From positions 1-44,240 of the forward strand of contig CBDUSZ010000003.1 in assembly GCA_965370015.1 (NCBI GenBank): DNA of 44,240 nucleotides. The letters run 5' to 3'. Below are positions 16,679 through 36,955 of this stretch, piece after piece (position 1 is the first letter of the stretch; every line of letters begins with the position of its first letter). The position numbers and the translations under genes were made by a program. The notes beneath the pieces were generated by a model that worked only from the letters and a program-made list of their open reading frames with translations, was not told where the DNA came from and did no database searches. Source of the DNA: an uncultured bacterium (GTDB lineage Bacteria > Pseudomonadota > Gammaproteobacteria > GCA-001735895).

Positions 16679-16681
16679 TGA

Positions 16682-21495: not shown

Positions 21496-21650
21496 GGATT
21501 TCACACTCCTAACAGTAAGGTTAATGGTGTTTGCAGCTTTCCTGCCGATCCGGCATGCCTGCCCCAAAAGTTATATTTTACGAATATCGACAATGCAAAA
21601 GCATCGATAAAACGACATTCTTTTATCCATAAGTCAATTTTTACTACAAT

Positions 21651-23742: not shown

Positions 23743-24433
23743 GCCGACATCGATGACCGTTGCACCTGGCTTAATCCAGTCGCCCTTGACCATTTCCGGC
23801 CTTCCTACCGCAGCGATGACAATATCGGCCTGACGGCATTCACCGGGCAAATCAACAGTGCGCGAATGCGCTATGGTTACCGTACAGCTTTCTTTCAGTA
23901 ATAACGCGGCCATCGGTTTACCGACAGATGTTAGAGCGACCCACGACGATGGCCTTTTTCCCCGATAAATCTCCCAGATGATCCTTCAACATCATCATCG
24001 AACCGAGCGGAGTGCATGGTACGATACCATCAGCACCAATCGACAATTTGCCCACATTAGAGAGATGAAAACCGTCGACATCTTTATCTGCAGCAACTGA
24101 GTTGATCACCGAACCTTCATCAATATGTTTGGGGAGTGGCAACTGTACCAGAATGCCATGCACTGCCGGGTCATTATTCAATGCATCAATCAATTCTAGC
24201 AATTCATGCTGAGGAGTTTCTGCTGAGAGTTTGTGTTCATATGAATTCATTCCTGCTTCCCCGGTTTGTTTACCCTTACTGCGTACGTAGACCTGACTAG
24301 CGGGATCTTCACCGACCAATACTACTGCAAGTCCTGGGGTGATCGAGTGATTTTGTTTTAGTAACTTAACTTTGCGGGCAATTTCTCCACGTAAATTTGC
24401 CGAAAAAGCTTTACCGTCAATAATAGTAGCCAA
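23743..24433 (-). pseudogene. folD: Second folD copy, frameshifted and 3'-truncated
   Basis: Protein nearly identical to 20617-21495. An extra base at ~23926 splits it into ORFs 23918-24433 and 23710-23913. Similarity is lost after IDVG, so the last ~62 codons including VPGGVGPMT are missing. Confidence 0.85.
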
Positions 24434-24600
24434 GGATTTCGCACTCCCTAATATTAGGTTAATGGTGTTTACAGATATGCTGTCAGCCGGATAGCTCTAC
24501 CAGCTAAATAATATTTTACAAATTTCAACACTATAAAAGCATCGATAAAACAACATTTTTTTAACCAATTGATCAACATCAAGAGTAAAAAAGGCCGCAT
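24431..24600. repeat. Diverged duplicate of the folD upstream region (partner 21493-21664)
   Basis: Shared blocks CAAGGATTTC, AGGTTAATGGTGTTT, AAAAGCATCGATAAAAC and AAAAAAGGCCGCAT in the same order. Confidence 0.8.
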
Positions 24601-24841: not shown

Positions 24842-25264
24842 TTAGTCAATCCCGCGTTCAGCCACCAGGCGAAAAATGTCTGATTCAGTCACCATACCGA
24901 CAAGCTTGTCAGCGGAATTAACCACCGGGATCCCGCCGAATTTATTCGCCAGCATCATGTTCGCGGCTTTGCTAACGGGTTCGTCCTCGAGAATTGTCAA
25001 AACCGGTGATGCCATAATTTTCTTGATAGTGAGCTTGGCCAACAGATAGTTCAACTCCCAGACGCTCAGGGATGTGGCACCGGACGGCGTTGCCTGTTGA
25101 ATATCCGAAAGCGTCACTATACCCATCAGTTTGTCGTCATCCATAACCGGGAGTCGCCTTATATTATTCCTGATCATCACTTGATGGGCTTCCGGCAATA
25201 CCGTATCCGGAGTAATTGACTCCACCTCTTTGGCCATAATTTCTTTTACTAGTACCTGTGTCAT
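24842..25264 (-). CDS. CBS-domain pair protein (AcuB N-terminal-like)
   Basis: IRRLPVM, LMGIVTLSDI, ATSLSVWELNYLL, LVGMVTESDIF. Confidence 0.9.
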   Translation of the reverse strand: MTQVLVKEIMAKEVESITPDTVLPEAHQVMIRNNIRRLPVMDDDKLMGIVTLSDIQQATPSGATSLSVWELNYLLAKLTIKKIMASPVLTILEDEPVSKAANMMLANKFGGIPVVNSADKLVGMVTESDIFRLVAERGID

Positions 25265-25357
25265 ATCCTATACCTTTAGGTTTGCACGATGATCGAATCA
25301 AGAAGGTTCTGCATAGGTTGCCCTGGGCCGGCCGAGCAGGAAAAAATGCCTGATACC

Positions 25358-26071
25358 CTATATTCCCAAATAAGTTTGGCGAACATTATCATCCTCTTTC
25401 AAGCGATCAGCCTGCCCTTCAAGAGCGATATTACCCGTCTCCAAAACATATCCGTAGTCTGCCAGCGCAAGTGCCAGGCGTGCATTCTGCTCAACCAATA
25501 CAATAGTCCTTCCATGAGCATGAATCTCCCTGATAATCCGTGCAATCTCCTGACACATAATCGGAGATAATCCCAGTGATGGCTCATCCATAAGTATAAG
25601 CCTTGGATTAGACATAAGCGCTCTGCCCAACGCAACCATTTGCTGTTCACCACCACTCATTGTTCCGGCAGCCTGGTTAATGCGCTCTTTTAAACGGGGA
25701 AAGTGAGAAAAGACAATCTCGAAATTATTCGCCACCTCCCTGGAGTCATTTCTTAAATAAGCTCCCATTTCAAGGTTTTCCTTTACACTCATCTGAGGAA
25801 ATACCCGGCGGCCTTCGGGAACATGCGCAATGCCTATACCGGTAATTTCTTCGGGCGGGAGCTCAGCGATTGACTCTCCCTCGAACAACACTTCACCCGC
25901 AGAGGGTCTGACCAGACCAGATATCATTCGCAAGGTTGTACTTTTACCGGCACCATTTGCACCAATCAAAGTGATAACATCACCCTCTGGCACTTTTATC
26001 GATATATTTCGAGTAGCTTCTACTTTGCCAAAATTGACAGCAGTATTTTTGAGTTCAAGCAACAATTTCAT
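25358..26071 (-). CDS. HAAT/Liv-type ABC transporter ATP-binding protein (LivF-like)
   Basis: GANGAGKST, HVPEGRRVF, MSGGEQQM, DEPSLGL, VEQN. Confidence 0.93.
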   Translation of the reverse strand: MKLLLELKNTAVNFGKVEATRNISIKVPEGDVITLIGANGAGKSTTLRMISGLVRPSAGEVLFEGESIAELPPEEITGIGIAHVPEGRRVFPQMSVKENLEMGAYLRNDSREVANNFEIVFSHFPRLKERINQAAGTMSGGEQQMVALGRALMSNPRLILMDEPSLGLSPIMCQEIARIIREIHAHGRTIVLVEQNARLALALADYGYVLETGNIALEGQADRLKEDDNVRQTYLGI

Positions 26072-26822
26072 CTGCTCCCAGGTAAGCCTCAATCACTTTT
26101 TTATTATTGATAATTTCTTCCGGTAATCCCTCTGCCAGCTTCTCTCCAAAATCCAACACGGTTATTTTGTCGCAAAGATTCATGACAGTTCTCATATCAT
26201 GTTCCACTAATAAAACTGTAATACCCCATTCATCCCTTATTTTCTTGACATGATCAACCATGATCGCTTTTTCACCGGAATTCATTCCGGCAACAGGCTC
26301 ATCGAGCATTAACAATTCCGGATCAGTTGCCAATGCCATCGCGACACCCAGTACACGTTGATGTCCGTGTGACAGATTGGCAGCCAGATTATCCTGTTCA
26401 TGTTCCAGACCAAGAAAACTAATAATCTCCATTGATCTTTCCATATTCCCCGCTTCGTCTTTATTTTTATGTCTGAAAATCGCATTCATCAAGGAAGCAT
26501 CGGCATTGAGATGCCGCGCAATAATCACGTTTTCAAGAACGGTAAAGTCAGGAAAAAGCGCTGGCCTTTGAAACGTACGCACAACACCCAGCTTGGCTAT
26601 TTTACTGGAATGCAATCCGGAGATAACTTGTCCTTTAAATTCAACTGTGCCTGAAGACGGCGCATAAAAACCACTAACCACGTTAAAAAACGTTGTCTTC
26701 CCCGCACCATTCGGCCCTATTACACCACGAATCTCCCCTTCTTCAACCTCCAGGTCAATCATGTGATTCGCCTGCAGGCCGCCAAAGCTTTTCGATAGCT
26801 TTTTAACCGAGAAAAAGGACAT
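26055..26822 (-). CDS. HAAT/Liv-type ABC transporter ATP-binding protein (LivG-like)
   Basis: FGGL, GPNGAGKTT, RTFQ, LDEPVAGMN, VEHDM, VIEAYLG. Start at ATG 26822 behind AGGAGG. Confidence 0.93.
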   Translation of the reverse strand: MSFFSVKKLSKSFGGLQANHMIDLEVEEGEIRGVIGPNGAGKTTFFNVVSGFYAPSSGTVEFKGQVISGLHSSKIAKLGVVRTFQRPALFPDFTVLENVIIARHLNADASLMNAIFRHKNKDEAGNMERSMEIISFLGLEHEQDNLAANLSHGHQRVLGVAMALATDPELLMLDEPVAGMNSGEKAIMVDHVKKIRDEWGITVLLVEHDMRTVMNLCDKITVLDFGEKLAEGLPEEIINNKKVIEAYLGADEIVA

Positions 26823-26823
26823 C

Positions 26824-27819
26824 TCAGCTGGCCTCCTTCTTAGCAAACAATTCGACAAAAAATAGTTTAATGCGAGGTATTAATGTTTCCAGCCCACCGG
26901 GCAGGTAGACCAGGAACACAATGAGTATCAAGCCAAACAACAGGGGTCGCCATTCTTCCAAAGGCCGAGACAGCTCAAAAACCAGTGACATGGAAATAAC
27001 ACCAATCAAAGGTCCCCAGAATGTTTTAACACCACCCACGACGACCCAGATAATAAGATATACCATTTCCACCATTTCAAAATTATGCGGATCTATGGAG
27101 CCGATCAGATAAGCCATCAGCGAACCCGCAATGCCCGCGAAAAAGCCGGCAACACAGAAAACCATAACCCGCGCCCGGGTAACATTGATTCCTATACTTT
27201 CGCATAACTCACTGTCCGCATAAATCGCTTTCCAGGCATTTCCGATTCTTGAACGATCAATCCGATACAAGATCACAAGCACTAAAACAGTAAAAATCAG
27301 GGTGAAAAAATAAAAGTTAGTAGAATCCCAGAAATCAACGAAATACCAGTCTCCCGACTGCCCTATTTCCAATTTAGGGATACCATTTACACCGCGAGCA
27401 CCACCGAACGGATTATGAAATTTCAACCAGACGTGACGGACAAATTCTCCTAACGCGAAAGAGGCGATAAAAAAAGCGAAGCCGATGGTCCTGGACAGTG
27501 GCACTGCAAACAATAAACTGACACCGACAGTGATCATTGCGGCCAATGGCATTGCAGCATAAAAAGGGACGCCAAACTTTTTAGCGAGTATCCCGGTAGC
27601 GTAGGCGCCTACGCCCATCAAGATATAGTGACAAAGCGTCCAGTCTCCGGTGGTTGTCATCAACCGATAGCTTTGCGCCAGAATTACGTTGATCAGAAAG
27701 ATGGTTAATAATTCAAGCCTGTAAGCAGAAACAATTTGCGGCGCCACACACAAGAAACCGACAATAATAAATACTGGCAACCAAAATTCTACGAAAGAGT
27801 TAGCGCTAGACTTTAACAT
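26824..27819 (-). CDS. HAAT/Liv-type ABC permease (LivM-like)
   Basis: Hydrophobic protein with GVGAYA, SRIGNAWKAI, VVVGG..TFWGPLIG, YLPGGL. Start uncertain. Confidence 0.88.
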   Translation of the reverse strand: MLKSSANSFVEFWLPVFIIVGFLCVAPQIVSAYRLELLTIFLINVILAQSYRLMTTTGDWTLCHYILMGVGAYATGILAKKFGVPFYAAMPLAAMITVGVSLLFAVPLSRTIGFAFFIASFALGEFVRHVWLKFHNPFGGARGVNGIPKLEIGQSGDWYFVDFWDSTNFYFFTLIFTVLVLVILYRIDRSRIGNAWKAIYADSELCESIGINVTRARVMVFCVAGFFAGIAGSLMAYLIGSIDPHNFEMVEMVYLIIWVVVGGVKTFWGPLIGVISMSLVFELSRPLEEWRPLLFGLILIVFLVYLPGGLETLIPRIKLFFVELFAKKEAS

Positions 27820-28675
27820 TACCGAGTAACCCTGTTGGTTTAACAATTAAAACAATGGCCATAAATAGAACACCGACCATGGTAGCTGTTACCGAGTCGT
27901 ACATTGTAGAGACAAAAGTATGAATAAAACCCAGGATAAATGCCGCCAGTACGGCACCTTCAATACTGGCCATACCACCAACAATAACAACAATAAATGC
28001 GGTAATCGCATAAACGTGCCCCATATAGGGCGTAACCGGAATAATGGGCGCCATCAGCGCACCACCGACCCCGGCAAAACCACCGGACAGAAACATTGCC
28101 AACATAGTCATCTTATTGATACTGATACCCTGCAGAACCGCGGCTTCAGTATCCTGAGCGCAGGCTCTCAGCGCCTTACCGGCTTTGATTTTTTTCAAAA
28201 AGAACCATAATCCCCCAACCATAATAATAGTGGCGGGAATGATGGCCAGACGCTGCCAGCTGACGGCAGCACCAAGAATTTCAGCGCTGCCCTTATACGG
28301 AACGGGTACCGAACGCATCAGTCCGACTCCCCACTGCTGCCCCACCAATACCTGAAAAATAAAACTTGCCCCTGCGGTTGCCATGAAACCGGCAAGAACA
28401 TTACCTCTGGTCGGCCTAAATATGGCCCGTTCCAATAGAACGCCGAGCAAGGCAACAATGGGAAATGCAGCGATTACTGCGATAAAAAATGGCAGGCCCG
28501 CAAGCGAATATAAAACATAAACGACGTAAGCACCGGCCATGAACAGTTCACCGTGAGCAAAGTTAGCCATTTGCATAACACCAAATGCCAATGCCAAACC
28601 CACAGCCACCATGGCGTAAATCGAACCCAGTACTAGTGCATTCGCGAATGATTGTATAAATGTTTCTAGTCCCAT
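27806..28675 (-). CDS. HAAT/Liv-type ABC permease (LivH-like)
   Basis: GSIYAMVAVGL, NFAHGE, GKALRA, VIVGGM.SI.G, KPTGLLG. Confidence 0.92.
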   Translation of the reverse strand: MGLETFIQSFANALVLGSIYAMVAVGLALAFGVMQMANFAHGELFMAGAYVVYVLYSLAGLPFFIAVIAAFPIVALLGVLLERAIFRPTRGNVLAGFMATAGASFIFQVLVGQQWGVGLMRSVPVPYKGSAEILGAAVSWQRLAIIPATIIMVGGLWFFLKKIKAGKALRACAQDTEAAVLQGISINKMTMLAMFLSGGFAGVGGALMAPIIPVTPYMGHVYAITAFIVVIVGGMASIEGAVLAAFILGFIHTFVSTMYDSVTATMVGVLFMAIVLIVKPTGLLGNVKV

Positions 28676-28743
28676 CTTGGCCAGCCTTTACTAGATCACT
28701 GTTTAATAATTCTATTCATAAAAATTCGGAAAGAAGGGATGAC

Positions 28744-28773
28744 ATCGGGAAGTGAATCCATTCACGCCCCGAT
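28744..28773. other. Intergenic stem-loop after the binding-protein gene (likely mRNA stabiliser)
   Basis: ATCGGG..GTGAA-TCCA-TTCAC..CCCGAT between the SBP and permease genes. Confidence 0.4.
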
Positions 28774-28800
28774 ATCCGTCGGTAGATCTAAAATGATCTA

Positions 28801-30066
28801 CTATTGATCATGCATCAGCCCTTTCGAACGGACATGCGCGATGATCTTATCTTTACGCGGTCCAAACCATTCGTAGAAATCAAGTACTTTCTGAACACGT
28901 TTCACACCATCGCGATGCTCATTAACTGGAACCGGTGTGGCGATCATGTTGTCGATACCCCACATATCGGAACCCGTGAATTTGCCCGCGCCTAGCAGAG
29001 TGTCTATTGAGTCAGCCTTTCTTAAAGCGGCGACCACTTTGTCTGCATCAAACGAGCAGGCCAACTGTACACCCTGAGCCCAGACTTCCAACATGATTAC
29101 ATGATCCCAGTCGATACCGGTAATGCCGCGCTTGACATCATCGGGACCACCAGGGCCGTAGCGCTTAATCCATTCATTATAAAATTCCTGTTGCGGGGAA
29201 CCCTTACCCCACCACGGATCATTAAACAACGGGAAACTATCAACCGCGCCTTCCATATACTCTTTCGGAACCTTTGTCAGAATTGATTCAGAATCCAGGT
29301 AGTTGGCCGAGATGCCGCCTTTAAAACCTTGCACATAAAGCTGCTCAATAATGCCAACAACAAAATCGGGATACGACAGATTCAAACTCACGACATCAGG
29401 CTTGGTTGCCAGAACTGCGGTTACAATGGGTGCGAAGTCAATGGTATCCAGCGAATAGTGCTTGTCATAAACCACGTCCCAACCATCGACCATCGCGGAG
29501 CCTACTTCCCATGCCTGCGCAATAAGACCGATCGTGTCATCCTGAGACAAAACCGCCCAACGCTTTAGATCAGGGTTCCTCTGCTTGTGGTATAACGGCC
29601 TCATCATGTCGATACGCGGAGTTACATCCCCACCAGCGATGAGATAAGGCCGGTCGGGTTTGATATCACCAGAAATCAAACTCGCATAAACAACTTTTTT
29701 CCGCGTCAAAAATGGATGTGTTGCATCAGCCGGGTTACCGCCAATCGCACTGATAAACTTCACGTTATGCTCAAGCACCAGTTGCTTGGCACCTTGTAGT
29801 GCTTTTGAACCAGTTGCTTCATCATCAAATGTCACCATGTTCAACTTGTGGCGTTTACCACAAACATCAAGACCACCTTCAGCATTCACTCTGTCGACAA
29901 ACATCTGGTTGCCCGTCAAACCGGGAAGCCCCCAGCCTGCATCCGGCCCTGACAATGCCCCTAGAAATCCAATATTGACTGTTTCTGCCGCTCGACCGTT
30001 TCCCACGGTCAACAGTGTTGAAGTTGCAACTACCGCTGCAAGTAATGTTTTACTGACTTGTTTCAT
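28801..30066 (-). CDS. Periplasmic substrate-binding protein, Leu/Ile/Val-binding fold, ligand unknown
   Basis: Signal peptide, IGFLGALSGP..WG, VNAEGG, DFAPIVT..KPDVV; first gene of a complete Liv-type cassette. Confidence 0.9.
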   Translation of the reverse strand: MKQVSKTLLAAVVATSTLLTVGNGRAAETVNIGFLGALSGPDAGWGLPGLTGNQMFVDRVNAEGGLDVCGKRHKLNMVTFDDEATGSKALQGAKQLVLEHNVKFISAIGGNPADATHPFLTRKKVVYASLISGDIKPDRPYLIAGGDVTPRIDMMRPLYHKQRNPDLKRWAVLSQDDTIGLIAQAWEVGSAMVDGWDVVYDKHYSLDTIDFAPIVTAVLATKPDVVSLNLSYPDFVVGIIEQLYVQGFKGGISANYLDSESILTKVPKEYMEGAVDSFPLFNDPWWGKGSPQQEFYNEWIKRYGPGGPDDVKRGITGIDWDHVIMLEVWAQGVQLACSFDADKVVAALRKADSIDTLLGAGKFTGSDMWGIDNMIATPVPVNEHRDGVKRVQKVLDFYEWFGPRKDKIIAHVRSKGLMHDQ

Positions 30067-30346
30067 AATATTCCTAGCCTCCTAATATAATGGATGGGTA
30101 TTAATGTTAATGTTACCGTTAAAAAAAAGACACAGGGTGAATTGTTGATGTACTCCCCACACTTCTAAATAAAGAATTACTCAGATATATCTTTACTGTT
30201 AACGTCTTGCCACTTATATAAATTATAAGCACTTCTCCCTAAACTGACTTTATTATATCTTACATCTATGCCATGAAAATTTTGACTGCAAGGGAACCAC
30301 CGAGTGACTGGCGACCCCTCAAATCCTGACGCCTGCTAGCAAACAA

Positions 30347-30736
30347 TCAGGAAAATTTCTCGTAAGCGTTTCGAAGATCAACCATCGGATGAGCTTTTGC
30401 CATCTGAAACTTCACCAGCAGCTCACGCGCAATCATGTCACGGTCCTGCTGGTTATCCGGCAATTCTATATTCTCCGGAATGGTTACCCATCCATTGATA
30501 TTCCGATCGAATACCGCCGGGCGACTTTCTTCATAACCCATGTGTACATCTTCCAGCCAGTTCAGATCGCTCCAGCCCATGACTTCCATATACTGGTGCA
30601 GAAATGGCGTACAACGTTCCATATCGGGCACCAGGTTGACATCGTAGCGATAACCGATGTGCTGACCGATTATCTTCTCGCGTTCGGTATCAAGACCATC
30701 GCCTTCGAGGAATTGATCAATATTTTGTTCAGCCAT
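30347..30736 (-). CDS. Hypothetical acidic protein in the module-B operon
   Basis: 129-aa ORF with AGGAGG RBS, 13 nt after the mgsC2 stop. Confidence 0.8.
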   Translation of the reverse strand: MAEQNIDQFLEGDGLDTEREKIIGQHIGYRYDVNLVPDMERCTPFLHQYMEVMGWSDLNWLEDVHMGYEESRPAVFDRNINGWVTIPENIELPDNQQDRDMIARELLVKFQMAKAHPMVDLRNAYEKFS

Positions 30737-30749
30737 ATTTATATCCTCC

Positions 30750-32093
30750 TTAGAAACGTGTCATGTCGGGACGACCGACCGTGTGTTGGGTTCCCGCCAT
30801 CGGCACCTGCGCACAGGCTGATGCTTCCAGTGTCAATGCAGCCAGATCTTCTGGCTCCAGTGAATGGATGTTGGTCTTGCCACAGGCGCGGGCGAATAAC
30901 TGAGCTTCGATAGTGAGTGTATGCAGGAAGTTATATACTCGTATTGCTGCCGAATCAGGATCGAGACGTTTACGCAATTCCGGATCCTGTGTCGCAATAC
31001 CTACCGGACAACGGCCGGTATGGCAGTGGTAGCAGTATCCAGCTTCAACACCCATTTCGTTCTCGAAATCAGCTTCCGGGATATCTTTATTGCAGTTCAA
31101 TGCCATCATAGCCGAATGACCGATAGCGACTGCATCAGCGCCCAGTGCTATCGCTTTAGCCACATCGGCTCCGTTACGGATACCACCGGCATATATCAGG
31201 GTAATTTCTCCAGATTTGCCGACATCATCAAGCGCCTGACGCGCCTGGCGAATCGCCGCAATACCTGGAATGCCCGTTTCTTCAGTTGCCAGGTGAGGGC
31301 CAGCACCGGTACCACCTTCCATACCATCGATATAGATCGAATCAGGACCAGTCTTTGCGGCCATACGCACGTCGTCGTAGACCCGCGCCGCACCCAGTTT
31401 TAACTGAATTGGGATTTGGCCATCGGTGGCTTCACGTACTTCCTGAATTTTCAGCGCCAGATCGTCCGGGCCCATCCAGTCAGGATGGCGCGCCGGTGAA
31501 CGCTGATCAATACCGGCAGGCAGCGAGCGCATTTCAGCCACCTGGTCGGTGACTTTTTGTCCCATCAAGTGACCACCGAGACCCACTTTACAGCCTTGCC
31601 CGATAAAGAACTCAACCGCATCTGCAAGTCGCAGATGATGCGGATTGAAACCGTAACGCGACTGGATACACTGATAAAGCCACTTACTGGAATAACGACG
31701 TTCGTCGGGAATCATGCCGCCTTCACCCGAACAGGTGGCAGTACCAGCCATGGTCGCACCACGTGCGAGCGCGGTCTTGGCTTCGTAACTCAGGGCACCG
31801 AAACTCATGCCGGTGATATATATTGGGATATCGAGTACTAGCGGTTTTTTAGCATTAGGACCGATGATGGTTTTGGTCAGGCACTTCTCGCGATAACCCT
31901 CGATAACGAAACGCGTCAGGGTGCCAGGCATAAAAGTCAGGTCGTCCCAGGTCGGTATTTTCTTGAACAGAGAGAAACCACGCATGCGGTAGCGACCCAG
32001 TTCGGACTTTATGTGGATATCGTTAATTACCTCGGGCGGGAAGATAAAGCTTTTCCCCAGGTGGTATGGATCTTTTTTTAATTTTTCAGACAT
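30750..32093 (-). CDS. FMN-binding glutamate synthase family subunit, MgsC-like (module B)
   Basis: GMSFGALS, SGEGG, GQGCKVGLGG, IDQRSPARHPDW, CYHCHTGRCPVGIATQD, ARACGK...LEPEDL. Confidence 0.9.
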   Translation of the reverse strand: MSEKLKKDPYHLGKSFIFPPEVINDIHIKSELGRYRMRGFSLFKKIPTWDDLTFMPGTLTRFVIEGYREKCLTKTIIGPNAKKPLVLDIPIYITGMSFGALSYEAKTALARGATMAGTATCSGEGGMIPDERRYSSKWLYQCIQSRYGFNPHHLRLADAVEFFIGQGCKVGLGGHLMGQKVTDQVAEMRSLPAGIDQRSPARHPDWMGPDDLALKIQEVREATDGQIPIQLKLGAARVYDDVRMAAKTGPDSIYIDGMEGGTGAGPHLATEETGIPGIAAIRQARQALDDVGKSGEITLIYAGGIRNGADVAKAIALGADAVAIGHSAMMALNCNKDIPEADFENEMGVEAGYCYHCHTGRCPVGIATQDPELRKRLDPDSAAIRVYNFLHTLTIEAQLFARACGKTNIHSLEPEDLAALTLEASACAQVPMAGTQHTVGRPDMTRF

Positions 32094-32123
32094 ATTTGTT
32101 CTCCAGGAGCTCTTACCAGTGCT

Positions 32124-32960
32124 TTAAAGCACCAGTTTTTTCTCACTAGGTTCGAGGTTGTCGTAATTCCACAGCTGCTTACCCGAGGTTAGCTTGACCA
32201 TGTTTTCTACGCCGCTGGGTGCTTCCAATCCGTAAAGCTCAAGTTTTCCGCGCAGATAGCGCTGATCGAGATCGGTCATCTCGGTTTCGACACAGTCAAC
32301 ACCGAGGCTGGCAATCTTGCCGGCCACATAAATCGTCCCGTCATACATCGAATCGCCGAGGTTATCTCCGGCATCACCAAGGATAATCATACGGCCACGT
32401 TGCATCATGAAACCGGTAAAAGCACCGACGCTGTCGCCAACGATAATCGTGCCACCTTTCTGGTCGATACCAACCCGGGCACCCGCCTGGCCTTTACAGA
32501 CCAGGTCGCCACCGCGTATCGCAGCGCCAAATAATGAACCCGCGTTCTTTTCGATCACCACGGTGCCAGCCATCATATTTTCCGCACAGGACCAACCGAC
32601 ACGGCCGCTGATACGGATATTGGCACCGTCGTTTAAACCACAGCCGAAGTAACCCAGGCTGCCTTCAAAATTCAGATTCAAACGGTTGAGGACACCCACA
32701 CCTAATGAGTGCTTGGCGCGGGGGTTTTTCACTGTAATCGTGCCGTGACCCGACTTCATCAATTCCCGAATCTTGAGGTTGATAGCCGTAATTTCCATAT
32801 CCGCGGCATCGAACTCGGCCGACTTGTCGATGTCGACTTCGTAGGCCCAGGGGTAAGTAAAATTCTCCTCTTCAGTTGCCGAAAAGAACATTTGCTGGCT
32901 ACGACCAGCCAATTGTTCCTCGTGCAGACCCATGTCATGGGATGTAGTTACGCTGCCCAT
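32124..32960 (-). CDS. GXGXG beta-helix subunit, MgsB-like (module B)
   Basis: HSLGVG, GSLGYFGC, AENMMAG, GFMMQRG repeats of the GltB C-terminal/FwdC fold. Confidence 0.88.
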   Translation of the reverse strand: MGSVTTSHDMGLHEEQLAGRSQQMFFSATEEENFTYPWAYEVDIDKSAEFDAADMEITAINLKIRELMKSGHGTITVKNPRAKHSLGVGVLNRLNLNFEGSLGYFGCGLNDGANIRISGRVGWSCAENMMAGTVVIEKNAGSLFGAAIRGGDLVCKGQAGARVGIDQKGGTIIVGDSVGAFTGFMMQRGRMIILGDAGDNLGDSMYDGTIYVAGKIASLGVDCVETEMTDLDQRYLRGKLELYGLEAPSGVENMVKLTSGKQLWNYDNLEPSEKKLVL

Positions 32961-33886
32961 ACTTTTACCTCCCCTTGATAAGGATCCCAGGTATCTATTT
33001 CACGTGGGAAAATACTTCGAATGGCCACTTCTTCCGAAGCCAGGCCGACAAATTCGTCGCTCTCGTAGAGCACCATCGGCTTCGCACCCATCACGTCTTT
33101 TGCCATGCCGAGCTGGTTACCGGTTGCCACCAGATAAGTAAATACGCCGTCAAGCTCATGGATCGAACGCGCCATCGCCGCTTCCAGCTCATCACCCTGT
33201 TCGATGCGATTAGCAATATAAACCGCGATCAGCTCCGAGTCACAATCGGACATGAAACGATGACCGCGGCGCTCAAGATCACGCCGATTAGTCCAGTAAT
33301 TGGTCAGTTGGCCGTTGTGAACCACCGATACATCGTTAAATGGGTAGGCCCAATAGGGGTGCGCAGAACGAATATCGACATCGGATTCGGTAGCCATACG
33401 CGTATGCCCGATAGCATGAGTGCCGACAAAACCATTCAGGCCGTATTGCGTGGAAACTTCGTCGGCGTCACCCAGGTCCTTGATCAGTTCCAGCGCGGTG
33501 CCAACCGATAAAATTTCAACCCCGTCGAGGTCTTCGATGAAATCGATCAATCGTTTCAGATCACCGTCAAATTCAAAGTGATAACGAAATGCATACTCGG
33601 TAGCTTCTTCACGCTCGGTGACTTTTGCGCCCAATTCCTCGAGACGCGCATCAACAGCTGCTTTACGTTCAATCACCTGTCGATGAATATCGAAACCAGT
33701 ACTCATTTCTTCCTGCTCGGCTACCTTGAAGCGTAACACCTGTACGCCTTTTTCCGGTTTACCGTAAAGTGCAAATCCGGTCGAATCTGGCCCACGGTGC
33801 TTCAATGCCTGAAGCATCTGGGTCATTTCGCTACCGATATCACTGCTTGCACCACCTTTCCAGATAAGTCCAGCAATACCACACAT
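32948..33886 (-). CDS. Class II glutamine amidotransferase, MgsA-like (module B)
   Basis: MCG N-terminus, HRGPDSTG, GHTRMATES, VHNGQLTN, DCDSE. 13-nt overlap with the next gene. Confidence 0.9.
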   Translation of the reverse strand: MCGIAGLIWKGGASSDIGSEMTQMLQALKHRGPDSTGFALYGKPEKGVQVLRFKVAEQEEMSTGFDIHRQVIERKAAVDARLEELGAKVTEREEATEYAFRYHFEFDGDLKRLIDFIEDLDGVEILSVGTALELIKDLGDADEVSTQYGLNGFVGTHAIGHTRMATESDVDIRSAHPYWAYPFNDVSVVHNGQLTNYWTNRRDLERRGHRFMSDCDSELIAVYIANRIEQGDELEAAMARSIHELDGVFTYLVATGNQLGMAKDVMGAKPMVLYESDEFVGLASEEVAIRSIFPREIDTWDPYQGEVKVWAA

Positions 33887-33964
33887 TAGAATATCCTCTT
33901 AAAATTAATAATTTGTTGTTGGGTAATTACCAGGCACAAATGCGCCTGGCGGCTATCAATCAGT

Positions 33965-35434
33965 TTATGGCAAGCAATCCAGGTACGTTTCCATGTCCCA
34001 ATCGGTGACTGTAGCGTTGTATCGCTCCCATTCATCGCGTTTGTAATGCTCGAATACCCTGTACATCTCGCCCGGCATCGAAGACTTGATCACTTCGTCG
34101 TTACGCAGTTCTTCGAGCGCATCACCAAGTGACATCGGCAACTTCTTGACGTTTTTACCAGCGTCGATAGCATCGTAAATGTTGCGCTCTTCAGCTTCAC
34201 CCGGATCAAGCTTGTTATCCATACCATCGTCAAAAGCTTTCAACAGCGCAGTACCCATCAGGTATGGGTTCACCATCGAGTCAACCGAACGGTATTCGAA
34301 GCGACCCGGAGCCGAAACACGCAATGCACAGGTACGATTCTGATAACCCCAGTCGGCGAAGATAGGCGCCCAGAAACCGGTATCCCAGAGGCGACGATAC
34401 GAGTTAACCGTCGAAGACCCGATCGAAGTCAGCGCACCGAGGTGCTTGATAACACCGCCAATACAGTGCAGGCCAATCGGACCTGGCGCTCGATCATCGA
34501 TCGAAGGATCGGGCATAAATGTGTTTTCGCCACCAACCCGGTAGGTAAAGGAACCTTCCATGCCTGCCAGGTCCTCGAAACCGAGCTTATTAACTACGTC
34601 TTCACCGCCACGCCATAGCGACATATTATGATGGCAGCCTGAAGCCGAAACGCCCATGAATGGCTTTGACATAAAACAGGCAATCAAATTGTCTTCACGT
34701 GCGACCTGGGCACAGATCTGGCGGTAGGTAGTCAAACGGTCCGCGTTACGCAGAACATCGTCGAACTGGGTATTCAATTCGAGTTGACCAGGCGCATCTT
34801 CGTGGTCGCCCTGAATAATATCGAGGCCCATTTGTTGAGAGTATTCGATAACTTTCATGAAAGTCGGGCGCAGTTCTTCAAACTGATCTATGTGGTAGCA
34901 ATTAGGCTTGGTTACACCGCCGTTTGGCTTGCCATCCTCACCACGCTTTAACCACATCATTTCTGGTTCTGTACCGCAACGCATCTCAAGACCGTGCTTG
35001 TCCTGAAACTCATTGTGAATACGACGCAGATTTCCGCGGCAATCCGAAGACAAAGCGCCGCCCGGGTTTTCCCGCTCTTCACGATTACGAAATAGTGTAC
35101 AGAACACACGACCGACGCGCTTGTCCCAGGGCAACTGACAAAAAGTTTCCGGATCAGGAATACCAATTAATTCCCAGGACTCCGCACCATAGCCAATATA
35201 ATCCCCATGGCGGTCGACAAACAGGTTTGCAGTCGATCCGTACACCAACTGGAAGCCTTTTTCCGCCAGTCGCTCCCAGTGCGCAGCGGGAATACCTTTA
35301 CCCATAATTCGTCCGGTGACCGAGACGAACTGGTAATAAATATAATCCACACCAGTTTGCTTGATCTTCTCGCTGACCTGCTTGACCAGGTCAGCGCGAC
35401 CAGGTGCTTCAACGTGCGCTTCTAAATCAGTCAT
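33965..35434 (-). CDS. Divergent glutamine synthetase-family gamma-glutamyl ligase
   Basis: GTEPE, DHEDAPGQLE, SKPF..SGCHHN, NSYRRL, NRTCALRV, FEYR...NPYL, and a C-terminal YLDCLP resembling GmaS. Confidence 0.9.
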   Translation of the reverse strand: MTDLEAHVEAPGRADLVKQVSEKIKQTGVDYIYYQFVSVTGRIMGKGIPAAHWERLAEKGFQLVYGSTANLFVDRHGDYIGYGAESWELIGIPDPETFCQLPWDKRVGRVFCTLFRNREERENPGGALSSDCRGNLRRIHNEFQDKHGLEMRCGTEPEMMWLKRGEDGKPNGGVTKPNCYHIDQFEELRPTFMKVIEYSQQMGLDIIQGDHEDAPGQLELNTQFDDVLRNADRLTTYRQICAQVAREDNLIACFMSKPFMGVSASGCHHNMSLWRGGEDVVNKLGFEDLAGMEGSFTYRVGGENTFMPDPSIDDRAPGPIGLHCIGGVIKHLGALTSIGSSTVNSYRRLWDTGFWAPIFADWGYQNRTCALRVSAPGRFEYRSVDSMVNPYLMGTALLKAFDDGMDNKLDPGEAEERNIYDAIDAGKNVKKLPMSLGDALEELRNDEVIKSSMPGEMYRVFEHYKRDEWERYNATVTDWDMETYLDCLP

Positions 35435-36114
35435 CTCTATACTCCAAAGGGATTAAATTTTGGTGATTCAATTTCAATCTTTAAGCAACTCAACTTACAT
35501 TTACTAAAAATAGATATTCTTCGATTCTGCTACCCGGCCTGGCTCCGGGGTAATGCACGACCAGATACCAGTTTTAATTTTCCTTTGAGGTCGGTTTCCC
35601 ATACAACTCAACTGTGCGCCATGAGTCCTTGCATTACGGTTGGGGAATTCGCCGTGCTACTAATTAATTATTGATTGTTGTACCAGCACAAGGCCAATGG
35701 TATACCCATATATTGATCCATTACAATACCTAATTCAAATTATTTTGTACAGAAGCTAATTTTTCAATCATTTTGCCAAACCAATTGACATTAAATCCGA
35801 TGCTTACATCTTCGGGAAGGGTCAATATAGTGCCATTAACTCCCCTTTTCCAGGCTTAAAACCTATGCCGTATATTAATAATAGTTGTTTAAATACAATA
35901 TATTACATACGGGTAGTTAATCTAAAATCTAATTTCCGCTGATAAATTAATGAGAATAGTTATATTTAGCCAATATGCTACAAGTGGTAGGTTATTCTGC
36001 AAATAAAATGATCGCTTTAACGCTATTAATGCTTGATTTAAGTCTCTATAAAATGTTATTTTGTACCAATTATTATACCAATCCAATAAATTTGGAACTA
36101 AGTGGGGACTCGAA

Positions 36115-36855
36115 ATGTCATCAAAGGAGAATAGAGGTCAGCATTCGTCTGGCCTCGAATTGAAATCAGGCGAAATAGGCAACAGGCCCCGTTTGGGAGT
36201 AACGACAGGCAACGTCGTGTCCAGATTACGTCGCATGATCCTTGAAGGCCAATATTCACACGAAGAACGTTTACCTGCAGAACGGAATCTAGCTGAGGAA
36301 TTCGAAGTTTCTCGGGGCACCATTAGAACGGTGCTGCAAATCCTCGAGGAACAGAACCTGGTGACACGCAAGGTTGGTAGTGGGACCTATGTGACACATA
36401 GAAAGGCTAGCCATCAACAAGATATCTCCAGTATCACTAGCCCATTAGAAATGGTAGAAGTGCGCATTTCCATCGAGCCTCAAATGGTACGACTGGCAAT
36501 TACCAATGCCAGTCATAGAGACCTCGAGGAGTTACGCAAGGCGCTACGCGAATGTGAGGATGCTGGTGCCAATGCGGAAAAATTCGCCAGTGCAGATACC
36601 GCTTTTCACATTGCCCTGGCGCACTGTTCCGGGAACAAACTGATGTTCTGGATTTACGAACGAATTAGTGAAGTTCGTAATTACGCGCAATGGCGCACAA
36701 TGAAATCCAAGCTGCTAACACCAGAACGAATCGAATTTTACAACAAACAGCACCGTGCTCTATACGATGCCATCGTCTCGCGCGATGCCAACGAAGCTGT
36801 CAAAATTATCAAGAACCATCTATATGGTGTCCAGGACGACCTGCTTGAAACTTGA
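36115..36855 (+). CDS. GntR/FadR-family (FCD domain) transcriptional regulator, divergent from module B
   Basis: LPAERNLAEEFEVSRGTIR, GSGTYV, ADTAFHIALA..SGN, QHRALYDAI. Confidence 0.93.
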   Translation: MSSKENRGQHSSGLELKSGEIGNRPRLGVTTGNVVSRLRRMILEGQYSHEERLPAERNLAEEFEVSRGTIRTVLQILEEQNLVTRKVGSGTYVTHRKASHQQDISSITSPLEMVEVRISIEPQMVRLAITNASHRDLEELRKALRECEDAGANAEKFASADTAFHIALAHCSGNKLMFWIYERISEVRNYAQWRTMKSKLLTPERIEFYNKQHRALYDAIVSRDANEAVKIIKNHLYGVQDDLLET

Positions 36856-36955
36856 CAGGCAGGTTATGCTCCATTTTTAATGTTCTAGTGAAGCTGTACT
36901 AGCCGCATAACAGTGTTTCGCTTCCCCAATAACCTGTCGGGATTATCCGCCAGAT

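What the first reader, a model, noticed from the sequence alone, without database searches (positions are those of the whole stretch)
24842..36855. A second, parallel GS + Mgs-like module with its own regulator, transporter and orphan gene: candidate undescribed amine-glutamylation pathway
Seen: a self-contained unit (divergent FadR; GS-like ligase, amidotransferase, GXGXG subunit, FMN subunit, 129-aa unknown, 5-gene Liv-type ABC importer, CBS protein, then a folD copy) sits beside a typical gmaS module. Each enzyme is clearly diverged from its module-A counterpart. Known: GmaS plus MgsABC convert methylamine via gamma-glutamylmethylamide to N-methylglutamate. Inference: module A already covers methylamine, so module B probably applies the same logic (gamma-glutamylate, hydrolyse and channel, transfer to 2-oxoglutarate) to a different amine imported by the ABC system. 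The substrate cannot be determined from sequence.
Basis: partly seen in the sequence, partly recalled or inferred. Interest (0 to 1): 0.88.

Follow-up and report, generated by a model that had tools for sequence, protein, structure and literature searches.

The report
Candidate missing dimethylamine pathway module
A conserved set of enzyme genes beside the known methylamine genes sits next to the TMAO-demethylase gene in many abundant ocean bacteria, and is a strong but untested candidate for the long-missing step that breaks down dimethylamine.

Summary
The "folD copy" is a frameshifted, truncated pseudogene.

In 56 of 57 related loci with enough sequence, the order GS-like ligase, amidotransferase, GXGXG, FMN subunit, 129-aa protein is kept. 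The Liv-type ABC/CBS block accompanies it in only 4 genomes.

The recurrent neighbours are different:
- TMAO demethylase Tdm and a TmoXWV-like importer
- a divergent Amt transporter
- a sarcosine-oxidase-fold flavoprotein, here called DAO8
- FolD and formate-THF ligase

The ligase forms its own clade outside GmaS. It still keeps GmaS's amine-pocket residues and lacks the ammonium-binding residues of true GS.

In two genome samples, 21 of 25 Tdm-bearing genomes carry the 129-aa marker, and 3 of the other 4 carry the known DMA-monooxygenase family.

Best reading: a second glutamate-mediated methylated-amine pathway, most likely for dimethylamine, the step reported missing in SAR11 and in abundant marine Gamma- and Deltaproteobacteria. 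The substrate is inferred, not shown. A second methylamine route is the main rival.

The parts
36061..36855 (+). GntR-family regulator with FCD effector domain, divergently transcribed from the ligase operon
   Evidence: PF00392 73.8 bits plus PF07729 98.3 bits. A GntR homologue is divergent from GS_B in 40 of 80 loci.
35435..36060 (.). 626-base divergent intergenic region, presumed promoter/operator
   Evidence: Position only. Promoter-like consensus matches (such as 35767-35739 on the - strand) are not clearly above the shuffled background: 32 found against 22.8 +/- 4.6 expected. No convincing palindrome. No Rfam match.
33965..35434 (-). GS_B: glutamine-synthetase-fold ATP-dependent glutamate-amine ligase of a distinct clade, 489 aa, with an insertion of about 28-30 aa
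   Evidence: PF00120 265 bits. Below the cut-offs of TIGR03105, GlnA and gamma-glutamylputrescine synthetase. 172 bits to GmaS 7CQL against 208 bits to an archaeal GS. Separate clade. GmaS pocket residues kept; Asp50' is Tyr and the flap Glu is Trp.
32948..33886 (-). GATase_B: class-II (Ntn) amidotransferase-like subunit, MgsA-like
   Evidence: PF13537/PF13522. N-terminus is MCGIAG, so Cys follows the initiator Met. 44.7% identical to the module-A amidotransferase.
32124..32960 (-). GXGXG_B: GXGXG-motif subunit, MgsB-like
   Evidence: PF01493 59.7 bits. 36.9% identical to the GXGXG part of module A. 77% mean column identity across 20 sequences.
30750..32093 (-). FMN_B: glutamate-synthase FMN-domain subunit, MgsC-like, with four invariant Cys
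   Evidence: PF01645 310 bits. 91% mean column identity in 19 sequences, with C334, C354, C357 and C362 invariant. A 17-residue insertion relative to module A lies between the first Cys and the others.
30347..30736 (-). u129: 129-aa acidic protein of no known family or fold; obligate last gene of the core
   Evidence: No Pfam or NCBIfam hit. 55 invariant columns in 29 sequences. AF2 model at pLDDT 79 with no fold match: Foldseek E > 1, best VIA Z 3.2. Profile search of 1.84 billion proteins gave 306 hits; the 150 listed are 45-317 aa, many matching only part of the profile, and the five longest (P0239 317 aa, P0263, P0175, P0195, P0188) were not examined. Follows FMN_B in 56 of 57 loci.
28801..30066 (-). 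Periplasmic binding protein (Peripla_BP_6) of the lineage-specific ABC importer
   Evidence: PF13458 124.7 bits. The only PDB sequence relatives are urea-binding proteins at E about 5e-6. Orthologues found only in G008 (93%), G010 (73-76%) and L043 (71%).
25358..28675 (-). LivH/LivM-type permeases (27806-28675, 26824-27846) and LivG/LivF-type ATPases (26055-26858, 25358-26092)
   Evidence: PF02653 twice, PF00005 twice, PF12399.
24842..25264 (-). CBS-pair protein, 140 aa, travelling with the ABC block
   Evidence: PF00571 twice, 112.8 bits. Also present with the ABC block in G008 and L043, but not seen in G010.
23744..24600 (-). folD pseudogene: frameshifted, 3'-truncated remnant at the junction of the ABC block
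   Evidence: 82% DNA identity over 862 bases to the folD region 20807-21664. The reading frame breaks after about 171 aa. The C-terminal domain matches only positions 2-47 of the 160-position profile.
22048..23418 (-). Divergent Amt-family transporter; the usual gene after u129 in relatives
   Evidence: PF00909 175.8 bits. TIGR00836 scores 176 bits, below its 343 cut-off. An Amt gene is present in 33 of 80 loci and directly follows u129 in about 10 of them (L002, L006, L009, L014, L016, L023, L061, L066; also L026 and L070), upstream in the SUP05-type loci.
20617..21567 (-). Full-length FolD (methylene-THF dehydrogenase/cyclohydrolase)
   Evidence: PF00763 plus PF02882. FolD follows the module in many loci, and FolD-FTHFS directly follow u129 in Arenicellales-type loci.

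Best explanation
Module B is the core of a second, self-contained, glutamate-mediated pathway for methylated amines. It runs parallel to GmaS/MgsABC, and its most likely substrate is dimethylamine (DMA).

The full unit, as seen across genomes, has six genes: a sarcosine-oxidase-fold flavoprotein (DAO8; in this genome on contig C186), GS_B, three Mgs-like subunits, and u129.

Proposed steps (all inferred):
1. The amine enters through the divergent Amt channel, or through the Liv-type ABC importer that occupies the Amt slot in this lineage. In most other genomes it is made inside the cell from TMAO by Tdm.
2. GS_B uses ATP to join it to the gamma-carboxyl of glutamate, giving N5,N5-dimethylglutamine.
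3. The Cys1 amidotransferase releases the amine into the GXGXG/FMN subunits. There it is condensed with 2-oxoglutarate and reduced by FMNH2 to N,N-dimethylglutamate. Alternatively, DAO8 first demethylates the gamma-amide to gamma-glutamylmethylamide, which the trio converts to N-methylglutamate.
4. DAO8 and SoxBDAG-type enzymes remove the methyl groups as methylene-THF.
5. FolD and formate-THF ligase oxidise the C1 units.

The GntR/FCD protein regulates the operon. u129 is probably an extra subunit or assembly factor.

Confidence that the module belongs to methylated-amine catabolism is about 0.85. Confidence that DMA is the substrate is about 0.45, which is the figure given.
For: Shown by sequence:
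- The domain set matches GmaS+MgsABC, including the Cys1 nucleophile.
- GS_B keeps the positions that the RhGmaS paper names as the methylamine pocket and catalytic residues: Tyr147, Gln175, Asp177, Glu179, Glu186, Asn188, Lys30' and flap Trp300 (passages of PMC7948447). It shows ...CYH..., QGDHEDAPGQLELN and GFWAP, conserved in 57 GS_B sequences.
- GS_B lacks the ammonium residues of GS: Asp50' is Tyr and the flap Glu is Trp.
- GS_B is a separate clade.

Context:
- The ordered core is present in 56 of 57 loci.
- ORF clustering of the 80 loci gives Amt in 33, a Tdm-type protein in 27, DAO8 in 26, u179 in 23 and an OpuAC-type binding protein in 15. The representative of the Tdm cluster scores 1116 bits against the 1100 cut-off of NF053776, TMAO demethylase.
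- DAO8's model matches sarcosine oxidase beta and monomeric sarcosine oxidase over their full length, and the flavoprotein domain of dimethylglycine oxidase (TM 0.65-0.72 normalised to the query, E about 1e-26 to 1e-22).
- A 1.4-Mb single-contig genome (G068) keeps both modules in one island: TmoXWV, Tdm, a classical Mgs trio, DAO8, GS_B through u129, u179, GmaS, Amt.

Phyletic pattern:
- Sample of 251 genomes (class of G036): u129 is in 13 of 16 genomes with a Tdm-type gene against 12 of 235 without. DAO8 is in 21 of 25 u129-positive genomes against 3 of 226 others. Within the 41 GmaS-positive genomes, u129 and PF11927 (the Dmm alpha family) overlap in 1, with 18 u129-only, 9 PF11927-only and 13 neither.
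- Sample of 201 genomes (the window's own class): 8 of 9 Tdm-positive genomes have u129, and the ninth has PF11927.
- This genome has neither PF11927, DUF1989/Tdm nor an FMO/Tmm match.

Literature (passages read):
- dmmDABC is absent from SAR11 and from abundant marine Gamma- and Deltaproteobacteria (PMC5520151).
- HTCC1062 is reported to grow on TMAO as a nitrogen source without dmm and 'may recruit an isoenzyme' (section heading and passages of PMC8918994).
- RhGmaS can glutamylate DMA, but with a Km of 16 mM against 27 uM for methylamine. The chemistry is therefore feasible, but the known enzyme is unsuited to DMA.
Against: - No experiment bears on the substrate.
- All seven pocket residues named for methylamine are conserved in GS_B, so the sequence does not separate DMA from methylamine.
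- Exclusion from the known DMA monooxygenase family is not strict. G039, G294, G382 and G471 have both u129 and PF11927, and G068 has a weak match.
- PF11927 is wider than Dmm: only 3 of 27 PF11927-positive genomes in the 251-genome sample have a Tdm-type gene.
- Across the whole 251-genome sample, u129 against PF11927 is not significant (p = 0.49).
- Related genomes are not independent, so the Fisher values overstate the case.
- Tdm was defined differently in the two samples: DUF1989 in an open frame of 700 aa or more, against NF053776 at E <= 1e-100.
- This genome lacks Tdm and Tmm, so here the amine would have to be imported.
- A secondary amine can form only an iminium with 2-oxoglutarate. 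I know of no precedent for that reaction in a glutamate-synthase-type FMN subunit.
- 6 of 25 u129-positive genomes lack a GmaS above cut-off. That also fits module B being a stand-alone methylamine route.
- Equating module B with SAR11_1305-1309 rests only on published gene names and gene order.
Confidence: 0.45

Rival explanations
1. Module B with DAO8 is a second, complete monomethylamine pathway. GS_B acts as an isofunctional GmaS, the trio as an N-methylglutamate synthase, and DAO8 as a single-subunit N-methylglutamate oxidase or dehydrogenase. It would differ from module A in affinity, regulation or electron acceptor.
For: - The seven methylamine-pocket residues and the flap Trp of RhGmaS are conserved in GS_B.
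- An Amt-family (ammonium/methylammonium-type) transporter is a frequent neighbour (33 of 80 loci).
- 6 of 25 u129-positive genomes have no GmaS above cut-off, 4 of them with Tdm.
- Ligase + synthase + sarcosine-oxidase-fold enzyme mirrors GmaS + MgsABC + MgdABCD one for one.
Against: - 19 of 25 u129-positive genomes also carry a true GmaS. These include a 1.4-Mb genome that keeps both sets side by side, and SUP05 and Arenicellales genomes. Redundancy of five to six genes in streamlined genomes is unlikely.
- The module tracks Tdm, which produces DMA (21 of 25 Tdm-positive genomes across both samples). This reading would leave the DMA step in those genomes unexplained.
- GS_B has been a separate, very tightly conserved clade (76-95% identity to the window's protein in the 80 best loci, whose record titles span Gamma-, Alpha- and Deltaproteobacteria) with its own insertion of about 28 aa.
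Confidence: 0.3
2. One reading: the module handles some other small amine, such as ethylamine, ethanolamine, hydroxylamine or an amide-derived amine, and the Liv-type ABC importer defines which one.
For: - The binding protein matches no characterised equivalog. LivJ-type scores 38.6 bits and UrtA 28.3 bits, both far below cut-off. Its only PDB relatives are urea-binding proteins at E about 5e-6, which hints at a very small polar ligand.
- The same binding protein (71% identity) sits next to module B in a differently arranged locus, L043.
- RhGmaS itself accepts ethylamine and hydroxylamine.
Against: - The ABC block is found in only 4 genomes: 1 of the 80 fetched loci and 3 of 19 genomes of the window's genus, G000 included.
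- It looks like an insertion. It is flanked by a folD pseudogene here and by a second u129 copy in G008.
- Conserved neighbours are C1 and methylated-amine genes (Tdm, TmoXWV-like, FolD, FTHFS, BHMT-like).
- In G010 the ABC block replaces Amt between u129 and FolD, so it looks like an alternative door for the same substrate.
Confidence: 0.1
3. Module B is an ammonium-assimilating GS-GOGAT of split, archaeal-like type.
For: - GS_B's best PDB sequence hit is an archaeal glutamine synthetase (208 bits).
- The three downstream proteins correspond to the three domains of the glutamate-synthase large subunit.
- Amt is a neighbour.
- FMN_B keeps a Cys cluster like the Fe-S site of GOGAT.
Against: - GS_B lacks Asp50' (Tyr instead) and the flap Glu (Trp instead), which are needed for ammonium (passages of PMC7948447).
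- It scores below the GlnA cut-off: 250.8 against 429.
- No GltD-type or ferredoxin partner is found in the core.
- The genome has a normal GlnA (462 bits).
- The context is C1 and methylated amines.
Confidence: 0.03

Closest known systems
N-methylglutamate pathway: GmaS + MgsABC + MgdABCD (Methyloversatilis, Methylocella, Ruegeria; RhGmaS structure 7CQL)
   Same: - Same enzyme families in the same roles: a GS-fold ligase, a class-II amidotransferase with Cys1, a GXGXG subunit and an FMN subunit.
- Same GmaS pocket residues and flap Trp.
- A sarcosine-oxidase-fold partner.
- Linked to Amt, FolD and FTHFS.
   Different: - The ligase is only 29.8% identical to the window's own GmaS, below the TIGR03105 cut-off, and in a separate clade.
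- It carries an extra insertion of about 28-30 aa and a longer Asp50'-region loop.
- Gene order is ligase first, not last.
- The demethylase partner is a single 447-aa protein (DAO8), not a four-subunit MgdABCD.
- There is an obligate fifth gene, u129, with no known fold.
- It coexists with a true GmaS in 19 of 25 carriers.
Dimethylamine monooxygenase DmmDABC / heme-dependent oxidative N-demethylase (PF11927 alpha subunit)
   Same: Proposed to fill the same place in the pathway, between Tdm and methylamine or N-methylglutamate metabolism. In Tdm-bearing genomes one or the other is almost always present: 24 of 25.
   Different: There is no sequence relationship, and no PF11927 match in this genome. 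Dmm is an O2- and NADPH-dependent haem enzyme that releases free methylamine (PMC5520151 passages; the enzymology is partly recalled). Module B would be ATP- and glutamate-dependent and might never release free methylamine.
Glutamine synthetase + glutamate synthase (GS-GOGAT)
   Same: Same folds, and the same three GltB domains as separate proteins. A Cys cluster sits next to the FMN site.
   Different: The ammonium-site residues are replaced. There is no reductase subunit. The context is catabolic.
Other gamma-glutamylation routes for amines (PuuA for putrescine, IpuC for isopropylamine, gamma-glutamylanilide synthetase); recalled, not tested here apart from the PuuA model
   Same: A GS-fold ligase activates an amine as a gamma-glutamyl amide before it is oxidised.
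   Different: The gamma-glutamylputrescine synthetase model scores 213 bits against a 650 cut-off. Those pathways use a gamma-glutamyl hydrolase and dehydrogenases rather than a Mgs-like trio.

Membership tests
GmaS (gamma-glutamylmethylamide synthetase; NCBIfam TIGR03105) | Whole-protein score above the curated cut-off (469.6 bits) | tested here: not met
   GS_B scores 294.6 bits in two stretches. The window's GmaS_A scores 659.5.
GmaS | Groups with characterised GmaS in a tree or by similarity | tested here: not met
   172 bits to 7CQL and 171 bits to 9QUR, against 629 and 360 bits for GmaS_A. 73 GS_B rows are separated from 10 GmaS rows by a branch with SH-aLRT 99. This was a quick tree with midpoint root, and no characterised sequence was itself in the tree.
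GmaS | Methylamine-pocket and catalytic residues (Tyr147, Gln175, Asp177, Glu179, Glu186, Asn188, Lys30', flap Trp300 of RhGmaS) | tested here: met
   Residue list taken from passages of PMC7948447. The aligned positions are conserved in 57 GS_B and 9 GmaS sequences. The mapping is by sequence alignment, not by structure.
GmaS | Kinetic preference for monomethylamine | not testable with these tools
   Needs an enzyme assay.
Glutamine synthetase type I (ammonium-dependent) | Asp50' and the flap Glu (Glu327/Glu304), which bind and deprotonate ammonium | tested here: not met
   Tyr aligns with Asp50' (HMMER alignments). Trp aligns with the flap Glu in GFWAP, where this genome's own GlnA has FEAP. 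TIGR00653 scores 250.8, below the 429.15 cut-off.
N-methylglutamate synthase MgsABC | Three subunits next to a GS-fold ligase: a class-II amidotransferase with N-terminal Cys, a GXGXG protein and an FMN glutamate-synthase-domain protein | tested here: met
   Pfam matches. MCGIAG start. Contiguous in 56 of 57 loci.
N-methylglutamate synthase MgsABC | Orthology to experimentally characterised MgsABC | tested here: inconclusive
   Only 37-45% identical to module A. G068 has a further classical-looking trio whose FMN subunit is 55% identical to FMN_B. No characterised Mgs sequence was available to compare.
DmmDABC / HODM dimethylamine monooxygenase | PF11927 alpha subunit (with reductase and GcvT-like subunits) | tested here: not met
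   No PF11927 match in G000. The search does find the family elsewhere: G039 at 219.8 bits, 27 of 251 genomes and 17 of 201 genomes. Module B is therefore at most a functional analogue.
Sarcosine oxidase / dimethylglycine oxidase flavoprotein family (for DAO8, contig C186) | Two-domain FAD amine-oxidase fold | tested here: met
   Foldseek against 3ADA_B: E 1.6e-26, TM 0.70/0.78, aligned over the full length. The model has pLDDT 82.
Sarcosine oxidase beta subfamily (TIGR01373) | Score above the 529.45-bit cut-off | tested here: not met
   71 bits. DAO8 is a distinct family of that fold.
Liv/Urt-type (HAAT) ABC importer | Peripla_BP_6 binding protein, two BPD_transp_2 permeases and two ATPases | tested here: met
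LivJ or UrtA equivalogs (known ligand) | Score above the curated cut-off | tested here: not met
   38.6 bits against 477, and 28.3 bits against 492.75.

The most novel reading that the evidence does not exclude
DAO8, GS_B, the Mgs-like trio and u129 together are the missing dimethylamine-catabolic route of bacteria that carry Tdm but lack DmmDABC, among them SAR11-like, SUP05-type, Arenicellales and SAR324-labelled genomes.

In this reading DMA is ATP-dependently gamma-glutamylated, passed as a glutamate-bound (di)methylamine, and demethylated to methylene-THF without free methylamine ever being released. The reported 'metabolic bottleneck' for DMA in the ocean would then be largely an annotation gap.

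u129 would be a new subunit type specific to this enzyme. The Liv-type system in this genome would be the first ABC importer for DMA or methylamine.
Probability: 0.4. Interest if true: 0.9.

Novelty: new variant of a known kind. Interest (0 to 1): 0.8.

Why it matters
Methylated amines are a major marine nitrogen and C1 pool, and they are precursors of climate-active aerosols. Since 2013-2017 the literature has recorded that SAR11 and abundant marine Gamma- and Deltaproteobacteria have tmm, tdm and gmaS but no DMA monooxygenase. This has been read as a 'metabolic bottleneck' that lets DMA escape (PMC3870248, PMC5520151 and PMC8918994, passages read).

A conserved, unassigned enzyme set that sits between tdm and gmaS in exactly those genomes turns the question into a few bench assays. 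If it degrades DMA, three things follow:
- Gene-based estimates of oceanic DMA turnover would need revising.
- gmaS-like marker surveys would need to separate two ligase clades.
- A new small subunit (u129) and a new flavoprotein family (DAO8) would gain functions.

If it proves to be a second methylamine route, it is still a widespread paralogous pathway in need of explanation.

Tried and rejected
- u129: ESM Atlas gave no usable hit. Foldseek against PDB gave nothing below E = 1. VIA-align over 48,161 chains gave a best Z of 3.2. The profile search of 1.84 billion representatives gave 306 hits; the 150 listed are 45-317 aa, many matching only part of the profile, and I did not examine the five longest. 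No function could be read from any of these.
- u179: Atlas gave no usable hit, and there is no Pfam hit.
- Complex prediction with FMN_B + GXGXG_B + u129: verdict 'no answer'. The score was 0.88, but a control with FMN_B replaced scored 0.75. I do not use this for or against binding. The pairwise runs the tool suggested could not be done because the cap is one job.
- Rfam over the whole window: no match.
- Promoter and terminator scans and inverted-repeat search in the intergenic regions: nothing clearly above background.
- RNA evidence: two marine-sediment metatranscriptome runs hold only 6-7% of the sampled words. Short contigs (at most 324 bases among the pieces listed), mostly 90-95% alike, lie on the binding-protein through ligase genes. 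These are relatives' contigs in RNA libraries. They are not proof of transcription and show nothing about an operon.
- The idea that the Liv block replaced Tdm as the source of substrate: G000, G010 and the genome of L043 lack a Tdm-type gene, but G008 has both on one contig. It is not a rule.
- Strict mutual exclusion of module B and PF11927: rejected (see evidence against).
- Ammonium GS-GOGAT reading: rejected on active-site residues.
Table S3 of PMC5520151, which lists which genomes lack dmm, could not be checked.
- Paper searches that found no functional assignment of this module: dimethylglutamate, dimethylglutamine, glutamyl-dimethylamide; SAR11_1305-1309. Subscription-only papers are not covered.

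Full report
**What is in the window.**
The window is the whole of contig C3 of a 3.5-Mb genome that is 99.6% complete. On the minus strand between 35434 and 24842 lie:
- a glutamine-synthetase-fold ligase (GS_B, 489 aa)
- a class-II amidotransferase
- a GXGXG protein
- a glutamate-synthase FMN-domain protein
- a 129-aa protein without any family (u129)
- a Peripla_BP_6 binding protein, two permeases and two ATPases of the Liv/Urt type
- a CBS-pair protein

A GntR/FCD regulator is transcribed divergently at 36061-36855.

Downstream follow a folD fragment, an Amt-family transporter, a full folD, an XRE-cupin regulator and 'module A'. Module A consists of an amidotransferase, a fused GXGXG+FMN protein, an 837-aa GltD-like protein and GmaS. 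Formate-THF ligase comes after it.

Module A's ligase is a true GmaS: 629 bits to the solved Rhodovulum enzyme 7CQL, and 659.5 bits on TIGR03105 against a cut-off of 469.6. The one real correction is that the folD copy is a frameshifted, 3'-truncated pseudogene, only 82% identical in DNA to the intact gene.

**The ligase.**
GS_B is 29.8% identical to GmaS_A. It scores below the cut-offs of the GmaS, GlnA and gamma-glutamylputrescine synthetase models. It is about equally distant from archaeal GS (208 bits) and GmaS (172 bits) among solved structures.

No characterised sequence was itself in the tree. GmaS_A anchors the GmaS group through its match to 7CQL.

GS_B is nonetheless mechanistically GmaS-like. 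It keeps the residues that the RhGmaS paper names as the methylamine pocket and catalytic residues: Tyr147, Gln175, Asp177, Glu179, Glu186, Asn188 and Lys30'. It also keeps the Trp that replaces the GS flap glutamate (passages of PMC7948447). These positions are conserved across 57 GS_B sequences. The Asp50' of true GS is a Tyr.

GS_B differs from GmaS by an insertion of about 28-30 residues after the HHNMSLW strand and by a longer loop in the Asp50' region.

It is therefore an alkylamine ligase, not an ammonium GS, but the sequence alone does not name the amine.

**The conserved unit.**
A scan of one genome per GTDB species found 596 stretches encoding a relative. The best 80 are 76-95% identical to GS_B. 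Their record titles include Arenicellales, SUP05/Thioglobus, Thiotrichaceae, Poriferihabitaceae, Rhodospirillales, Thalassospiraceae, Rhizobiaceae and a 'Deltaproteobacteria' MAG. Metagenomic homologues are labelled SAR324.

Of the 57 loci that reach at least 4.3 kb beyond the ligase, 56 carry the ordered set GS_B, amidotransferase, GXGXG, FMN, u129.

u129 is remarkable. It has 55 invariant columns in 29 sequences and a confident alpha/beta model (pLDDT 79), yet no fold match. A profile search of 1.84 billion representatives gave 306 hits; the 150 listed are 45-317 aa, many matching only part of the profile, and the longest were not examined.

FMN_B is 91% conserved on average. It keeps four invariant cysteines next to the PVGVATQDP motif, as module A's FMN part does.

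**The Liv block is an add-on.**
The binding protein has orthologues only in L043 among the 80 loci (71% identity). Within the window's genus it is in 3 of 19 genomes, G000 included.
- In G010 the block lies between u129 and FolD, where other genomes have Amt.
- In G008 it is flanked by two u129 copies.
- In the window it ends in the folD pseudogene.

This looks like recombinational insertion of an alternative importer into the transporter slot of the operon. Its binding protein resembles only urea-binding proteins, and only weakly (E about 5e-6).

**What really travels with the core.**
Clustering all ORFs of the 80 loci gave these recurrent neighbours:
- an Amt transporter (33 loci)
- a 772-aa DUF1989+GcvT protein (27 loci); its representative scores 1116 bits on NCBIfam's TMAO demethylase equivalog, cut-off 1100
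- a 447-aa FAD protein directly upstream of GS_B, here called DAO8 (26 loci)
- an OpuAC-type binding protein with a fused permease and an ATPase, like TmoXWV (15, 8 and 25 loci)
- an unknown protein, u179 (23 loci)
- FolD and FTHFS
- in SUP05-type loci, a homocysteine S-methyltransferase-type protein

DAO8's model (pLDDT 82) superposes over its full length on sarcosine oxidase beta and monomeric sarcosine oxidase, and on the flavoprotein domain of dimethylglycine oxidase (E 1e-26 to 1e-22, TM about 0.7).

In this genome DAO8 lies on another contig (C186, 74-80% identical to the locus copies).

In the closest relatives Tdm lies between the Usp gene and the GntR gene. In the window those two genes abut, and the genome has no DUF1989, no FMO-type Tmm and no PF11927 match.

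**Phyletic pattern.**
In an even sample of 251 genomes from the class of G036 (the genome of L071, titled Thalassospiraceae):
- u129 occurs in 25, PF11927 (the alpha-subunit family of DMA monooxygenase/HODM) in 27, and both in one, where the PF11927 match is weak.
- A Tdm-type gene (DUF1989 in an open frame of at least 700 aa) occurs in 16. Of these, 12 have u129 alone, 1 (G068) has u129 plus a weak PF11927 match, 2 have PF11927 only and 1 has neither.
- GmaS above cut-off occurs in 41. Of these, 18 have u129 only, 9 PF11927 only, 1 both and 13 neither.
- DAO8 orthologues are in 21 of 25 u129 carriers and in 3 of the 226 others.

In an even sample of 201 genomes of the window's own class (one per family):
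- u129 is in 11 and Tdm (NF053776, E <= 1e-100) in 9.
- 8 of the 9 Tdm genomes have u129, and the ninth has PF11927.
- 3 of the 11 u129 genomes also have PF11927.

SUP05 and Arenicellales carriers have a true GmaS elsewhere in the genome and no PF11927. Njordibacter (G039) has both module B and PF11927.

Kin are not independent, the two samples used different Tdm criteria, and PF11927 is broader than Dmm. The association of the module with Tdm is nevertheless strong and was seen twice.

**A streamlined genome.**
G068 (1.4 Mb, one contig) carries, within about 40 kb:
- a TmoXWV-like importer and Tdm
- GcvT-like genes and a soxB-like gene
- a classical Mgs-like trio
- DAO8, GS_B, the module-B trio and u129
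- a u179-like gene, GmaS, Amt and a third GS-like gene

Published tables for Pelagibacter HTCC1062 list SAR11_1304 sox, 1305 glnT, 1308 gltB2, 1309 hypothetical, 1310 amt, 1313-1315 glxBCD and 1316 glnT (passages of PMC3870248 and PMC2704228). By names and order, 1305-1309 look like module B and 1313-1316 like mgsABC-gmaS. This is an inference; I could not compare the sequences.

**Link to an open question.**
Three papers record the same gap.
- Smith et al. 2013 wrote that the absence of DMA monooxygenase leaves SAR11's DMA pathway 'in question'.
- Lidbury et al. 2017 showed that dmmDABC is absent from SAR11 and from abundant marine Gamma- and Deltaproteobacteria, and called this a metabolic bottleneck.
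- Gao et al. [quoted passage not shown]

RhGmaS glutamylates DMA only with a Km of 16 mM, against 27 uM for methylamine.

Eight literature searches found no paper that assigns a function to this module. Only open-access papers and bioRxiv preprints are covered, and supplements were closed.

**Most likely mechanism.**
Shown by sequence and comparison:
- the folds and catalytic residues
- the gene order
- the neighbours
- the phyletic pattern

Inferred:
- the amine is DMA
- GS_B makes N5,N5-dimethylglutamine
- the Cys1 amidotransferase, GXGXG and FMN trio passes the amine on to 2-oxoglutarate; alternatively it acts after DAO8 has removed one methyl group from the gamma-amide
- DAO8 and SoxBDAG-type enzymes release the methyl groups as methylene-THF (two soxD loci in G000)
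- FolD and FTHFS oxidise the C1 units

In this genome, which lacks Tdm and Tmm, the amine would have to come from outside through Amt or the Liv-type importer.

I put about 0.85 on membership in methylated-amine catabolism, 0.45 on DMA, 0.3 on a second methylamine route, 0.1 on another small amine and 0.03 on ammonium assimilation.

**Verdict.**
The unit must be redrawn, however. The Liv/CBS block and folD fragment are lineage-specific baggage, while DAO8, Amt and Tdm are the real companions. This makes the finding more interesting rather than less, because it points at a named, long-standing gap in marine nitrogen cycling that a handful of assays could close.

Noticed in passing
window 12792-19572 (-): Module A is not a textbook mgsABC-gmaS. 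GXGXG and FMN are fused into one 658-aa protein. An 837-aa GltD-like Fe-S flavoprotein (Fer4_20 + Pyr_redox_2 + a C-terminal FMN/DHODH-like stretch; NF009410 at 408 bits, below cut-off) sits between it and gmaS. The same layout occurs in L058, L073 and L074 (Rhodospirillales-type). It could be an NAD(P)-linked alternative to MgdABCD.
   Followed up: partly
window 23744-24600 (-): The folD pseudogene is only 82% identical in DNA to the intact folD 2.3 kb away. It is probably a remnant brought in with the Liv block from another genome, not a local duplication.
   Followed up: yes
L090 (G008:C425) 4351-4737 and 10443-10829: A same-genus genome has two u129 copies (81% and 86% identical to the window's) flanking the Liv-CBS block, and it still has Tdm on the same contig.
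   Followed up: partly
window 36855-36956: The Usp and GntR genes abut here. In the closest related loci (L002, L007, L009, L014, L023, L026) a Tdm gene lies next to GntR, and in four of them (L007, L009, L023, L026) a Usp gene was seen on its other side. This genome has apparently lost Tdm, and no DUF1989 match exists anywhere in it.
   Followed up: yes
window 10150-10689 (-): u179 is a 179-aa protein with no family and a conserved N-terminal W-Q-C-R-x-R-Q motif. It co-localises with module B in 23 of 80 loci, next to u129 or GntR. In the window it is about 20 kb away, beside FTHFS. Function unknown.
   Followed up: partly
window 9447-9947 (+); L021 after u129: A gamma-glutamyl(amine) cyclotransferase-like protein (AIG2_2/GGACT) lies near u179. 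A 34%-identical one follows u129 in L021. It may act as a salvage or proofreading enzyme for gamma-glutamyl amides.
   Followed up: no
window 37927-41887 (+): A DAO-family oxidase (463 aa; weak ThiO, N-methyltryptophan oxidase and soxB similarity), a 386-aa protein with no Pfam or NCBIfam hit, and a second SHMT (49% identical to the one on C332) form a possible further C1/amine cluster.
   Followed up: no
L078:7143-7640 and 7 other loci: A 165-aa protein with no Pfam hit recurs between Amt and FolD or DAO8 in 8 loci. No homologue was found in this genome by tblastn.
   Followed up: no
G031:C12, G033:C8, G034:C12; L088:2927-4261: SUP05 genomes and G068 carry a third GS-like type close to their GmaS: 365-374 bits on TIGR03105 in SUP05, and about 31% identity to GmaS_A in G068. 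These genomes thus hold up to three amine-ligase paralogues besides GlnA.
   Followed up: no
tree; record titles: GS_B sequences 76-95% identical to the window's are spread over loci whose record titles name Gamma-, Alpha- and Deltaproteobacteria, and one MAG labelled Acidimicrobiia. Branch lengths are very short, and the branching only partly follows the taxa in the titles (L021, a Parasphingorhabdus MAG, and L009, the Acidimicrobiia-labelled MAG, sit among gammaproteobacterial rows). That suggests horizontal spread, very strong constraint, or both.
   Followed up: no
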